Assembly: GCF_055900595.2 (NCBI RefSeq)
Contig: NZ_CM148325.1
Length of the DNA stretch: 64,000 bases
Direction: 5' to 3' (one strand)
Positions within the stretch are counted from its first letter, which is position 1, and every line of letters begins with the position of its first letter. The translations under genes and the position numbers were made by a program. Shown here in pieces: positions 6,398 through 64,000 of this stretch. Under the pieces are notes generated by a model. That model ran no database searches. It had not been told where the DNA came from and saw only the letters and a list, made by a program, of their open reading frames with translations.

Positions 6398-7189
6398 TTA
6401 GCTGATTAACTGCTGGACAATTCGGCTACCGAAGTAGGCCAGTGTCAGAATGACCGCTCCCGCAACGTTAAACCAGACGACGCGGCGTCCACGCCATCCT
6501 TCATGATAATGTCCCCACAGCAGCACAATATAGACAAACCACGCCACGATAGAGAGCACGGCCTTGTCGATATTTTCCATGCTAAATAAGTTGTGCATGT
6601 AGAAGAGACCAGTGCAAAGAGTGAGCGTTAACAGCACCACGCCAATCTGCGTGATGTGGAACATTTTACGCTCGATACTCATCAACGGCGGCATTTCTTG
6701 GTTAAACGCCAGCTTCTTGTTCTTCAGTTGGTAATCAATCCACGCCAGTTGTAATGCATACAGAGCGGCGATAATCAGCGTGGCATAGGAAAAGAGCGAT
6801 AAGCCAATGTGAACCAGCATCCCAGGCGTTGCTTCCAGATGGGTGATGTATTCATTGGGCATAAAGGTGGCCAGCGCCAGGTTGATAAGCGCAAAGGCAT
6901 AGACAATGGGTAGCAGTAACCAGCCACGATTGCGGGAAGCCACGATGGTCATTACCGTACAGATCATCAAACTGACCAGCGAACCAACGTTCAGTAAGCT
7001 GAGGTTTTGTCCGCTATCACCGTCGGGCAAGATACGGGCTTCCAGAGCGATTGCGTGGCAGACCAGCGCGATGACCGCAGAAATAATAGCCATGCGCCGC
7101 CAGCCGCCGTTTTTTTGCAGCAGACCGGGAACAATCAGCGCAAGACTGACGGAGTAGGCGACAAGCGCGAGCAGAGCAAAAACGGGCAT
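6398..7189 (-). CDS. ypjD: Inner membrane protein YpjD (cytochrome c assembly protein-like family)
   Basis: Polytopic membrane ORF; start taken at MPVFALLALV (263 aa); ORF track extends to 7264. Confidence 0.8.
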   Translation of the reverse strand: MPVFALLALVAYSVSLALIVPGLLQKNGGWRRMAIISAVIALVCHAIALEARILPDGDSGQNLSLLNVGSLVSLMICTVMTIVASRNRGWLLLPIVYAFALINLALATFMPNEYITHLEATPGMLVHIGLSLFSYATLIIAALYALQLAWIDYQLKNKKLAFNQEMPPLMSIERKMFHITQIGVVLLTLTLCTGLFYMHNLFSMENIDKAVLSIVAWFVYIVLLWGHYHEGWRGRRVVWFNVAGAVILTLAYFGSRIVQQLIS

Positions 7190-59501: not shown

Positions 59502-61603
<2,102 letters not shown>

Positions 61604-61768
61604 TTAGTTAATTCTCTGTGTCGTGCGCATCCCAGCTTGAAAAAACGTAATAATAGTGAAAGGTTTACTCATAAATGAGCGGCATTTTGCGTAAACCAGC
61701 GCCAGTTGGCAACTTATTACAGCCATTGGCGGCACGCGTTGCTAATTCACAATGGTGATTTTATTTCC

Positions 61769-61784
61769 ACGCAAACGGTTTCGT
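61769..61784 (+). promoter_or_regulatory. PurR operator (PUR box) upstream of purL
   Basis: acgcaaacggtttcgt matches PurR box consensus ACGCAAACGTTTTCGT; tataat at 61802-61807 downstream. Confidence 0.8.
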
Positions 61785-61860
61785 CAGCGCATCAGATTCT
61801 TTATAATGACGCCCGTTTCCCCCCCTTGGGTACACCGAAAGCTTAGAAGACGAGAGACTT

Positions 61861-64000
61861 ATGATGGAAATTCTGCGTGGTTCGCCTGCATTGTCGGCAT
61901 TCCGAATCAACAAACTGCTGGCACGTTTTCAGGCTGCCAGGCTCCCGGTTCACAATATTTACGCCGAGTATGTCCATTTTGCTGACCTCAATGCGCCGTT
62001 AAACGATGATGAGCACGCACAACTTGAACGCCTGCTGAAATATGGCCCGGCACTCGCCAGCCACGCCCCGCAAGGCAAACTCCTGCTGGTGACTCCGCGT
62101 CCTGGTACCATCTCTCCCTGGTCTTCGAAAGCGACCGATATCGCCCATAACTGCGGGCTGCAACAGGTAAACCGCCTTGAGCGCGGCGTTGCTTACTATA
62201 TAGAAGCCGGTACGCTGACCCATCAACAATGGCAGCAGGTGACCGCTGAACTGCACGACCGCATGATGGAAACGGTCTTTTCTGCTTTAGATGATGCAGA
62301 GCAGCTGTTTGCACACCATCAACCGACTCCGGTCACCAGCGTTGATTTGCTGGGGCAGGGCCGTCAGGCGCTAATCGACGCTAACCTGCGTCTTGGCCTG
62401 GCACTGGCGGAAGATGAAATTGACTATCTGCAGGATGCGTTCACAAAGCTGGGTCGTAACCCGAACGACATCGAGCTGTATATGTTCGCCCAGGCGAATT
62501 CTGAGCACTGCCGCCACAAAATTTTTAACGCCGACTGGATTATCGACGGAGAACAACAGCCGAAATCGCTGTTCAAGATGATCAAAAACACCTTCGAAAC
62601 CACGCCGGATCACGTTCTCTCGGCTTATAAAGATAACGCCGCCGTAATGGAAGGTTCTGAAGTGGGCCGCTACTTTGCTGACCACGAAACGGGCCGCTAC
62701 GATTTCCATCAGGAACCGGCGCACATTCTGATGAAAGTCGAAACCCACAACCACCCAACGGCGATTTCTCCGTGGCCGGGCGCAGCTACCGGTTCCGGCG
62801 GTGAAATTCGCGATGAAGGTGCCACCGGCCGCGGCGCGAAGCCGAAAGCTGGCCTGGTCGGTTTCTCCGTATCCAACCTGCGTATTCCTGGCTTTGAACA
62901 ACCGTGGGAAGAAGATTTCGGTAAGCCTGAGCGCATTGTCACCGCGCTGGACATCATGACAGAAGGTCCGCTGGGCGGCGCGGCATTTAACAACGAATTT
63001 GGTCGTCCGGCACTGAACGGCTACTTCCGTACCTATGAAGAAAAAGTGAACAGCCACAACGGCGAAGAGCTGCGCGGGTATCACAAACCGATCATGCTGG
63101 CGGGTGGGATCGGCAACATTCGCGCCGATCACGTACAAAAAGGTGAGATCAACGTCGGTGCGAAACTGGTCGTTCTCGGCGGCCCGGCAATGAACATCGG
63201 TCTTGGCGGCGGCGCGGCGTCTTCCATGGCGTCTGGTCAGTCTGATGCCGACCTCGACTTTGCTTCCGTACAGCGCGATAACCCGGAGATGGAGCGTCGC
63301 TGTCAGGAAGTGATCGACCGTTGCTGGCAGCTTGGTGATGCTAACCCAATTCTGTTTATCCACGACGTCGGCGCAGGCGGTCTTTCTAACGCGATGCCGG
63401 AACTGGTGAGCGACGGCGGACGCGGCGGTAAATTCGAACTGCGCGATATTCTGAGCGACGAACCGGGCATGAGCCCGCTGGAAATCTGGTGTAACGAATC
63501 CCAGGAACGCTACGTGCTGGCGGTTGCTGCCGATCAGTTACCGCTGTTTGACGAACTGTGTAAGCGTGAACGCGCGCCCTACGCGGTGATTGGTGAAGCG
63601 ACCGAAGAACTGCATCTTTCTCTGCACGATCGTCATTTTGATAATCAGCCGATCGATCTGCCGCTGGACGTCCTGCTTGGTAAAACGCCGAAGATGACCC
63701 GCGATGTGCAAACGCTGAAAGCGAAAGGCGACGCGCTGGCCCGTGAAGGGATCACCATTGCAGACGCGGTGAAACGTGTGCTGCATCTGCCGACTGTGGC
63801 GGAAAAAACCTTCCTGGTGACCATTGGCGACCGCAGCGTAACCGGTATGGTGGCGCGCGATCAGATGGTGGGGCCGTGGCAGGTGCCGGTCGCTAACTGC
63901 GCGGTCACTACCGCCAGCCTCGACAGCTACTACGGCGAAGCGATGGCAATTGGCGAACGTGCGCCGGTTGCACTGCTGGATTTCGCCGCCTCTGCCCGTC
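61861..64000 (+). CDS. purL: Phosphoribosylformylglycinamidine synthase PurL, partial (runs off the window end)
   Basis: [30 protein letters not shown]...; open to the window end so absent from ORF track. Confidence 0.93.

What the first reader, a model, noticed from the sequence alone, without database searches (positions are those of the whole stretch)
61769..61784. PurR operator upstream of purL
acgcaaacggtttcgt is a near-consensus PUR box between a possible -35 region and tataat (61802-61807), consistent with purine repression of purL.
Basis: partly seen in the sequence, partly recalled or inferred. Interest (0 to 1): 0.15.

Follow-up and report, generated by a model that had tools for sequence, protein, structure and literature searches.

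The report
Known PurR operator of purL
This 16-base sequence is the already characterised binding site of the purine repressor PurR at the E. coli purL promoter, so it is a correct but ordinary, textbook feature.

Summary
ACGCAAACGGTTTCGT lies at 61769-61784 and TATAAT at 61802-61807, in the mltF/purL divergent intergenic region of an E. coli chromosome. From about 20 bp upstream of the box to the purL ATG the sequence is identical to K-12 MG1655. The 16-mer is the exact reverse complement of the purL PurR motif in the K-12 ChIP-chip study (Cho 2011).

A PurR matrix built from 27 other ChIP-supported sites scores it 22.1 bits. The next best site in the window scores 12.6, and 0 of 300 simulated windows reach 22.1.

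In a PurL-anchored sample of 80 genomes, all 67 Enterobacterales loci with upstream DNA carry the same box exactly 17 bp upstream of the -10 (TATAAT in 65, TATACT in 2 Rosenbergiella). The spacer between them varies freely.

One detail needs correcting. The box is not between a -35 and the -10; it covers the -35 position. With the published TSS (G61815) it spans -46 to -31. The most likely mechanism is that the PurR-hypoxanthine/guanine dimer sterically excludes RNA polymerase.

Verdict: already known, low interest. The side observations (conserved GC-rich discriminator, G-T3-4-C4-7 transcript start, invariant GAAGACGAGAGA before the ATG) are unexplained but minor.

The parts
61769..61784 (.). 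PurR operator (PUR box). It reads ACGCAAACGGTTTCGT on the + strand and ACGAAACCGTTTGCGT on the - strand. It is a 16-bp imperfect palindrome with a central CpG at 61776-61777, spans -46 to -31 and is centred at -38.5 relative to the TSS.
   Evidence: Sequence read. Identical to K-12. Same 16-mer as the purL ChIP-chip motif and a listed cognate PurR site. Scores 22.1 bits with a purL-excluded matrix and is unique in the window. Present in 67 of 67 Enterobacterales loci with upstream DNA, with 14 of 16 positions invariant.
61779..61784 (+). The -35 position of the purL promoter (TTTCGT, 2 of 6 matches to TTGACA), lying inside the operator.
   Evidence: Inferred from the fixed 17-bp spacing to TATAAT. 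The promoter scan calls no + strand promoter because this -35 is poor. Mendoza-Vargas 2009 class the promoter as '-10 only'.
61802..61807 (+). The -10 hexamer TATAAT of the purL promoter.
   Evidence: TATAAT in 66 of the 68 aligned sequences (the window plus 65 loci) and TATACT in the other 2, always 17 bp after the box. Assigned as the sigma-70 -10 of the mapped purL TSS in Mendoza-Vargas 2009, suppl. file 3.
61808..61814 (+). GC-rich discriminator GACGCCC between the -10 and the TSS.
   Evidence: Moderately conserved as G/A-N-C-G-C-C-C across Enterobacterales. Its function is inferred only.
61815..61815 (+). purL transcription start (G), 46 nt upstream of ATG 61861.
   Evidence: Mendoza-Vargas et al. 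2009 (PMC2760140), suppl. file 3: purL TSS at -46, found by 454 sequencing and supported by one read. The mapping onto the window is my own arithmetic. The evidence is weak but agrees with the position of the -10.
61815..61860 (+). 46-nt purL 5' UTR. It starts GTTTCCCCCCC (61815-61825) and ends with the Shine-Dalgarno region GAAGACGAGAGA (61846-61857).
   Evidence: conservation. No Rfam family matches. The E. coli leader is less structured than shuffled sequences, z = +1.9. No consensus fold.
61861..64000 (+). purL coding sequence (phosphoribosylformylglycinamidine synthase), 5' part, which runs off the end of the window. This is the gene the operator represses.
   Evidence: Annotated as purL under the match in E. 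coli genomes and in K-12. The PurL N-terminus is conserved in 80 genomes.
61757..61768 (+). AT-rich block GATTTTATTTCC directly upstream of the operator (-58 to -47), at the position of a distal UP-element subsite.
   Evidence: Moderately conserved (mean information 0.72 bits against 0.29 further upstream). A role as an UP element is inference only.

Best explanation
The 16-bp sequence at 61769-61784 is the operator through which the purine repressor PurR (LacI/GalR family) represses purL, the gene for step 4 of de novo purine synthesis. When hypoxanthine or guanine is abundant, the corepressor-bound PurR dimer binds this imperfect palindrome. Each helix-turn-helix reads one half-site in the major groove, and the hinge helices open the minor groove at the central CpG (61776-61777). 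The operator spans -46 to -31 relative to the purL start site (G61815). It therefore covers the weak -35 hexamer and the adjoining upstream DNA of a promoter that relies on a perfect TATAAT -10. Bound PurR should keep sigma-70 region 4 (and probably an alpha C-terminal domain) off the DNA and so block transcription initiation. What is shown here: the sequence, its identity to the K-12 site, its statistical uniqueness, its fixed spacing to the -10, and its conservation. What is taken from the literature: PurR occupies this site in vivo in K-12 in an adenine-dependent way, purL belongs to the PurR regulon, and the TSS position. What is inferred: steric exclusion of RNA polymerase as the mode of repression.
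For: Exact sequence and coordinates. The locus is mltF/purL in 5425 of 5426 complete E. coli genomes. The window is identical to K-12 MG1655 from 61752 through the purL ATG. Cho 2011 Table 1 gives a purL PurR ChIP-chip peak (log2 1.88, seen only with adenine) with motif ACGAAACCGTTTGCGT, the exact reverse complement of the window 16-mer. The coordinates agree with my mapping once the U00096.2 to U00096.3 offset is applied. The same 16-mer appears among cognate PurR sites in PMC2585596. A matrix built without purL scores it 22.14 bits, which ranks 8th when placed among the 27 training sites. The next best site in the window scores 12.63, and 0 of 300 null windows reach 22.14. In a sample chosen by PurL protein similarity and not by the box, 67 of 67 Enterobacterales loci with upstream DNA have [A/G]CGCAAACGGTT[T/A]CGT exactly 17 bp before TATAAT (65 loci) or TATACT (2 Rosenbergiella loci). 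Mean information is 1.93 bits in the box and 1.97 in the -10, against 0.79 in the spacer and 0.29 upstream. The purL TSS is at -46 with a TATAAT -10 and no recognisable -35. The 70-bp core is identical in 5387 of 5425 E. coli genomes. purR is present in 5424 of 5426 E. coli genomes. Solved PurR-operator structures exist, including 1PNR and 1QPZ.
Against: No experiment was done on this strain. The primary footprinting paper (He et al. 1990) could not be read here, so in vitro binding rests on secondary citation. The TSS rests on a single 454 read, and I could not find it in three other TSS data sets as held. The repression mechanism (occlusion rather than, for example, trapping of RNA polymerase) is inferred from position alone. 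The invariance of all positions, including non-consensus ones such as G61778, is more than PurR binding alone requires. The DNA may therefore carry a second constraint from RNA polymerase contacts.
Confidence: 0.97

Rival explanations
1. The match is a chance resemblance to the PUR box with no regulatory role.
For: At a loose threshold (<=3 mismatches to one consensus string) the window holds no more matches than shuffled sequence: 2 matches, both at this one site, against 0.96 expected.
Against: At 1 mismatch the expectation is about 0.0015 per window. The matrix score of 22.1 bits was reached in 0 of 300 simulations. The site is identical to the ChIP-supported K-12 site. It is invariant across 67 Enterobacterales loci while the neighbouring spacer varies.
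Confidence: 0.005
2. The conserved 16-mer is mainly a promoter element (the -35 and UP-proximal DNA contacted by RNA polymerase), and its likeness to a PUR box is secondary.
For: The box covers the -35 position at a fixed 17 bp from the -10. Non-consensus positions of the box are also invariant, which suggests a constraint beyond PurR binding.
Against: The -35-position hexamer TTTCGT matches TTGACA at only 2 of 6 positions, and published promoter calling found no -35. The conserved block has the exact length, symmetry and central CpG of a PurR site. PurR occupies the site in vivo. The two roles do not exclude each other, and dual use is the likely situation.
Confidence: 0.02
3. The operator also, or instead, controls the divergent gene mltF through a minus-strand promoter that overlaps the box.
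For: A sigma-70-like match lies on the - strand across the box (CTGACG, 18 bp, TAAAAT; 61787 to 61758), and a second lies at 61712 to 61684. mltF starts 165 bp away at 61603.
Against: The region holds 2 promoter-like hits against 0.8 +/- 1.0 expected by chance. The CTGACG -35 lies in the variable spacer and is not conserved (positions 61785-61787). No yfhD/mltF TSS is present in the Mendoza-Vargas supplement. Cho 2011 assign this peak to purL only.
Confidence: 0.05
4. The site is used by another LacI-family repressor, for example RbsR, the closest PurR paralogue, in place of or alongside PurR.
For: RbsR is the closest solved relative of PurR (322 bits). A review cites cross-regulation of purine synthesis by RbsR in E. 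coli (Shimada 2013, cited in PMC13328217). LacI-family operators share a CG-centred palindrome (established knowledge).
Against: The published RbsR targets cited are not purL. The site fits the PurR matrix at the level of strong PurR sites and is occupied by PurR in vivo.
Confidence: 0.03

Closest known systems
E. coli K-12 purL PurR operator (pur regulon, He et al. 1990; RegulonDB; Cho et al. 2011 ChIP-chip)
   Same: The 16-mer is identical, as are the spacing to TATAAT, the leader and the flanking genes. This is the same element in another E. coli strain.
   Different: Nothing within the operator or promoter differs. There are four substitutions elsewhere in the 257-bp intergenic region relative to MG1655; the one nearest the box is at 61752, 17 bp upstream.
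Other PUR boxes of the PurR regulon (purF, purMN, purHD, purC, purEK, purT and others)
   Same: A 16-bp imperfect palindrome with consensus ACGNAAACGTTTGCNT and a central CpG, located at the core promoter of a nucleotide-biosynthesis gene. The purL site matches 13 of 14 specified consensus positions and scores 22.1 bits, within the range of the strong sites (25.1 to 12.1 bits).
   Different: It has one non-consensus base in a half-site (C instead of A at position 7 of ACGAAACCGTTTGCGT, which is G61778 on the + strand), and that base is invariant across Enterobacterales. Here the box lies over the -35. In purB and purR the operators lie downstream of the start site and act as roadblocks (Cho 2011 text).
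LacI/GalR-family operators in general (lacO, galO, the RbsR operator, cre sites for CcpA)
   Same: A homodimeric repressor, a pseudo-palindromic operator centred on CG, and hinge-helix insertion at the central step. PurR's solved relatives include RbsR and CcpA.
   Different: PurR needs a corepressor (hypoxanthine or guanine) to bind, whereas LacI is released by an inducer. The half-site sequence is specific to PurR.

Membership tests
PurR operator (PUR box) of the enterobacterial pur regulon | 16-bp imperfect palindrome | tested here: met
   ACGCAAACGGTTTCGT compared with its reverse complement ACGAAACCGTTTGCGT agrees at 12 of 16 positions, that is 6 of 8 symmetric pairs (counted by hand).
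PurR operator (PUR box) of the enterobacterial pur regulon | Central CpG step, the site where the PurR hinge helices insert | tested here: met
   C61776-G61777 lie at positions 8-9 of the 16-mer and are invariant in all 68 aligned sequences. The structural role of the CpG is established knowledge from the PurR-DNA structures (1PNR family).
PurR operator (PUR box) of the enterobacterial pur regulon | Match to the consensus or matrix of validated PurR sites | tested here: met
   13 of 14 specified positions of ACGNAAACGTTTGCNT match. The site scores 22.14 bits with a matrix of 27 other ChIP-supported sites, and 0 of 300 simulated windows reach that score.
PurR operator (PUR box) of the enterobacterial pur regulon | Located at or just downstream of the promoter of a nucleotide-metabolism gene | tested here: met
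   The box ends 17 bp upstream of the purL -10 and 76 bp before the purL ATG. It spans -46 to -31 relative to the published TSS.
PurR operator (PUR box) of the enterobacterial pur regulon | Occupied by PurR in vivo or in vitro | not testable with these tools
   Binding cannot be assayed here. For the identical K-12 sequence, ChIP-chip shows an adenine-dependent PurR peak with this motif. The in vitro footprint paper (He 1990) is cited by PMC10912719 and PMC3548332 but could not be read.
PurR operator (PUR box) of the enterobacterial pur regulon | Cognate purR gene present in the organism | tested here: met
   purR is not in the 64-kb window, but it is present in 5424 of 5426 complete E. coli genomes, and the window is E. 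coli.
PurR operator (PUR box) of the enterobacterial pur regulon | Purine (hypoxanthine/guanine) dependent repression of the downstream gene | not testable with these tools
   From the literature only. purL is listed among genes repressed by PurR-hypoxanthine (Cho 2011) and in the title of Meng et al. 1990.
PurR operator (PUR box) of the enterobacterial pur regulon | Conserved at the orthologous promoter in related species | tested here: met
   67 of 67 Enterobacterales loci with upstream DNA carry the box at the same 17-bp spacing to the -10. Two Vibrionaceae carry ACGCAAACGGTTGCGT in a different arrangement. Aeromonas has a degenerate box at the same spacing. Pseudoalteromonas, Shewanella and the other distant taxa have no good site.

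The most novel reading that the evidence does not exclude
The purL promoter may carry a second control layer that does not depend on PurR. Across Enterobacterales the transcript begins with a conserved G-U(3-4)-C(4-7), preceded by a conserved GC-rich discriminator, and all 16 operator positions are frozen, including non-consensus ones. The T-run at +2 to +4 resembles, from my memory of the literature, the carAB P1 initially transcribed GTTTGCC, where UTP-sensitive reiterative transcription operates. A GC-rich discriminator is typical of ppGpp/DksA-sensitive promoters. If either applies, purL initiation would sense pyrimidine NTP pools or the stringent response directly, in addition to sensing purine bases through PurR.
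Probability: 0.12. Interest if true: 0.35.

Novelty: already known. Interest (0 to 1): 0.05.

Why it matters
It matters little as a discovery, because this is a textbook operator of the E. coli purine regulon that has been known since about 1990 and was confirmed genome-wide in 2011. Its use here is as a positive control: the first-stage reader recognised a genuine, experimentally validated transcription-factor site from sequence alone. The only refinement is geometric. The operator sits on the -35 position of a promoter dominated by its -10, which fits repression by excluding RNA polymerase. The cross-species sample also shows how rigid the box-17 bp-TATAAT architecture is across a whole bacterial order.

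Tried and rejected
1. Rfam scan of 61400-62100 at E <= 1 found no RNA family, so there is no known riboswitch or leader.
2. Folding the E. coli purL leader showed it is less structured than shuffled sequences (z = +1.91), and RNAalifold on 38 leaders gave no consensus structure. The idea of a structured leader was dropped for this window.
3. A hairpin seen in other genera is supported by covariation, but that segment is absent from Escherichia, so it is not relevant here.
4. Comparison within E. coli alone was uninformative for a footprint, because the intergenic region is at least 97.7% identical in all genomes.
5. The search for an experimental TSS failed in several places. He et al. 1990 and Thomason 2015 are not held. 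There was no purL entry in the held supplements of the Cappable-seq paper, Kim 2012 or the Shigella TSS paper. Cho 2011 and RegulonDB v8 have no supplements held. Only Mendoza-Vargas 2009 gave a TSS.
6. The generic promoter scan calls no + strand promoter because the -35 is too weak. Its two - strand hits are at chance level and their hexamers are not conserved.
7. An 'IHF site' listed for purL in Mendoza-Vargas suppl. file 6 (TAACTCATTGATTTTAAT) does not occur in the window and was disregarded.
8. Other matrix hits in the window (best 12.63 bits, at 7041-7056) are below the chance maximum of 15.45 and were not pursued.

Full report
**Observation.** One search shows acgcaaacggtttcgt at exactly 61769-61784 and tataat at exactly 61802-61807 on the + strand. 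The ORF list shows a 518-aa ORF on the - strand ending its N-terminus at 61603, and an open frame running off the window end from ATGATG at 61861. A 401-bp query across the region matches 5425 of 5426 complete E. coli genomes at 95% identity or more. The features under the match are annotated as mltF (membrane-bound lytic murein transglycosylase F) and purL (phosphoribosylformylglycinamidine synthase). The window is therefore E. coli chromosome, and the finding lies in the 257-bp mltF/purL divergent intergenic region.

**Is it more than chance?** At a loose threshold (up to 3 mismatches to ACGCAAACGTTTTCGT) the window has only this site, read on both strands, which does not exceed shuffled sequence. 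At its actual quality of 1 mismatch, the iid expectation on both strands of 64 kb is about 0.0015 (my calculation).

I built a log-odds matrix from the 27 other motif-bearing PurR ChIP-chip regions in Cho et al. 2011, leaving purL out. The site scores 22.14 bits on the - strand (16.09 on the +), which ranks 8th when placed among the 27 training sites. The next best hit in the window scores 12.63 bits. Simulated first-order Markov windows have a mean maximum of 15.45 and an overall maximum of 21.71, so 0 of 300 reach 22.14. The exact iid P is 2e-8 per position.

**Comparison with K-12.** The MG1655 copy (L001) aligns without gaps. It has four substitutions in the intergenic region, all upstream of 61753. 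The sequence is identical from 61753 through the box, spacer, -10, leader and start codon.

Cho et al. 2011 (PMC3159470, Table 1) list a PurR-binding region assigned to purL. Its log2 enrichment was 1.88 with adenine and no peak was called without it. Its motif is ACGAAACCGTTTGCGT at 2,693,642-2,693,657. That motif is the exact reverse complement of the window 16-mer. The coordinates equal my mapping (window x = 2,757,404 - x in U00096.3) after the roughly 1978-bp offset between genome versions.

The same 16-mer heads the list of cognate PurR sites in PMC2585596, Table 2. Reviews and the RegulonDB evidence paper cite He et al. 1990 and Meng et al. 1990 for PurR control of purL. I could not read He 1990 itself.

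**Geometry.** Exactly 17 bp (61785-61801) separate the box from TATAAT. The last six bases of the box (TTTCGT) therefore occupy the -35 position for a canonical 17-bp spacer, and they match TTGACA at only 2 of 6 positions. This explains why the generic promoter scan reports no + strand promoter.

Mendoza-Vargas et al. 2009 (PMC2760140, suppl. file 3) map a purL TSS at -46 from the start codon. They assign it the -10 'attcTTTATAATgacg' and no -35 (class '10_S70'), on the basis of one 454 read. Position -46 from A61861 is G61815. That gives a 7-nt discriminator (GACGCCC) and places the operator at -46 to -31, centred at -38.5.

The operator covers the -35 position, and nothing upstream of it could serve as a -35 for this -10, because it would be at least 33 bp away.

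**Cross-species test.** To avoid selecting on the box itself, I anchored on the first 200 residues of PurL and fetched 80 loci from species-representative genomes. They range from Escherichia (96% identity) to Shewanella, Pseudoalteromonas and Aeromonas (62-64%).

Scanning 400 bp upstream of each with the purL-excluded matrix gave a clear result. Every Enterobacterales locus with upstream DNA (67 of 67; L013 is truncated) has [A/G]CGCAAACGGTT[T/A]CGT as its best hit, scoring 20.0-22.1 bits. This holds from Escherichia, Citrobacter and Enterobacter through Pantoea, Erwinia, Serratia, Yersinia, Dickeya and Hafnia to Photorhabdus, Providencia and Budvicia.

In all 67 the box is followed after exactly 17 bp by TATAAT (65 loci) or TATACT (2 loci, both Rosenbergiella). 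Ungapped column statistics over the 67 loci plus the window (68 distinct sequences) are as follows:
- Box: mean information 1.93 bits, with 14 of 16 positions invariant.
- -10 hexamer: 1.97 bits.
- Spacer: 0.79 bits, with its first ten positions essentially free.
- DNA further upstream: 0.29 bits.

This is a classic phylogenetic footprint. Outside the order the pattern changes:
- Two Vibrionaceae carry ACGCAAACGGTTGCGT 155 bp upstream of purL, without TATAAT at +17.
- Two Aeromonas keep the box-17 bp-TATAAT layout with a degenerate box (AGAAAAACGTTTGTTC and TGAAAAACGTTTGTCC).
- Pseudoalteromonas, Shewanella, Alkalimonas and Catenovulum have no good site.

Comparative conservation of the PurR regulon in gamma-proteobacteria has been described before (Ravcheev 2002, cited in PMC13328217). 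Within E. coli, the 70-bp core 61757-61826 is identical in 5387 of 5425 genomes.

**Trans factor and mechanism.** purR is not in the window, but it is present in 5424 of 5426 E. coli genomes. PurR has many solved structures, including operator complexes (1PNR, 1QPZ, 1BDH, 2PUA and others).

From established knowledge of those structures and the pur regulon, a PurR dimer loaded with hypoxanthine or guanine binds the pseudo-palindrome and kinks it at the central CpG (here 61776-61777). Bound at -46 to -31, it should block sigma-70 region 4 and upstream alpha-CTD contacts, and so prevent initiation.

The adenine-dependent ChIP signal at purL fits corepressor-dependent occupancy. Occlusion as the mode of repression is my inference from position and was not tested here.

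**Rivals.** Chance is excluded. A purely promoter-element reading is unlikely, because the -35-position hexamer is poor and the conserved block has the exact size and symmetry of a PurR site. Dual constraint is still plausible and could explain why even non-consensus positions (for example G61778) are invariant.

Control of divergent mltF is not supported. The - strand promoter-like match over the box is at chance level (2 found against 0.8 +/- 1.0 expected). Its -35 lies in the variable spacer. No mltF/yfhD TSS is in the one supplement that gave a purL TSS.

Cross-binding by the paralogue RbsR cannot be excluded but has no support for purL. No Rfam family matches. The E. coli leader is unstructured (z = +1.91) and has no consensus fold, so an RNA-based explanation for the region is not supported.

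**Side observations.** Downstream of the -10, several elements are conserved across the order:
- a GC-rich discriminator;
- a transcript start G-T(3-4)-C(4-7), with T61817 in 68 of 68 and C61820 and C61821 each in 67 of 68;
- GAAGACGAGAGA just before the start codon, almost invariant even in Photorhabdus.

Many genera also carry a hairpin between these elements that has good covariation support: 88.5% of cells paired against 22-46% for slid controls, and 7 of 7 pairs with compensatory changes. Escherichia and Citrobacter lack that segment. I found no literature linking purL to reiterative transcription or discriminator-based control. These observations remain unexplained and are recorded as leads only.

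**Verdict.** The element is the already known purL PurR operator. Novelty: already known. Interest: low.

Noticed in passing
window 61815-61825: The purL transcript start G-T3-C7 (GTTTCCCCCCC) is strongly conserved as G-T(3-4)-C(4-7) across 67 Enterobacterales loci (T61817 in 68/68 aligned sequences, C61820 and C61821 each in 67/68). The C-run length varies between species and even within Escherichia (C6 in L003, C7 here). From memory it resembles the carAB P1 initially transcribed GTTTGCC, where UTP-sensitive reiterative transcription occurs. I found no literature linking this to purL.
   Followed up: partly
window 61808-61814: A conserved GC-rich discriminator (GACGCCC; consensus G/A-N-C-G-C-C-C) lies between the perfect -10 and the TSS. 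This is the type associated with ppGpp/DksA-sensitive promoters. It was not tested.
   Followed up: no
window 61846-61857: GAAGACGAGAGA immediately upstream of the purL start codon is nearly invariant from Escherichia to Photorhabdus (AAGATGAGAGAA). That is more conservation than a weak GAGAG Shine-Dalgarno alone would seem to need. No structure or known RNA family explains it.
   Followed up: partly
L005-L056 etc., alignment A2 columns 27-47 (no counterpart in the window; the gap falls near 61841): Most non-Escherichia Enterobacterales carry an extra hairpin (AAGCGYC...GRCGCTT and variants) in the purL leader, with good covariation support (88.5% paired, 7/7 pairs with compensatory changes). 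Escherichia and Citrobacter lack the segment entirely.
   Followed up: yes
window 61861-61866: purL begins ATGATG. Distant orthologues (Photorhabdus, Providencia, Budvicia, Hafnia) align from the second codon only and have a single ATG. The second ATG (61864) may therefore be the ancestral or true start, and it has better spacing from GAGAG.
   Followed up: no
window 61758-61787 (- strand) and 61684-61712 (- strand): Two sigma-70-like matches point toward mltF, and one of them overlaps the PUR box (CTGACG-18-TAAAAT). The count is at chance level, the -35 is not conserved across species, and no mltF TSS was found in the one supplement searched. The mltF promoter remains unlocated.
   Followed up: partly
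L070, L071 (Vibrionaceae); L078, L080 (Aeromonas): Vibrionaceae have a near-identical PUR box (ACGCAAACGGTTGCGT) 155 bp upstream of purL, without TATAAT at +17 but followed about 20 nt later by a T-run/C-run (TTTTTTCCCC). Aeromonas keeps the box-17 bp-TATAAT layout with a degenerate box (AGAAAAACGTTTGTTC, 7.4 bits). This suggests the architecture is older than the Enterobacterales, with drift in PurR specificity.
   Followed up: no
window 61600-61752: The window is not K-12. It has four substitutions relative to MG1655 in the mltF-proximal part of the intergenic region (window 61629, 61698, 61706, 61751/2). It is 100% identical over 401 bp to strains such as Z0117EC0005 and E200086.
   Followed up: yes
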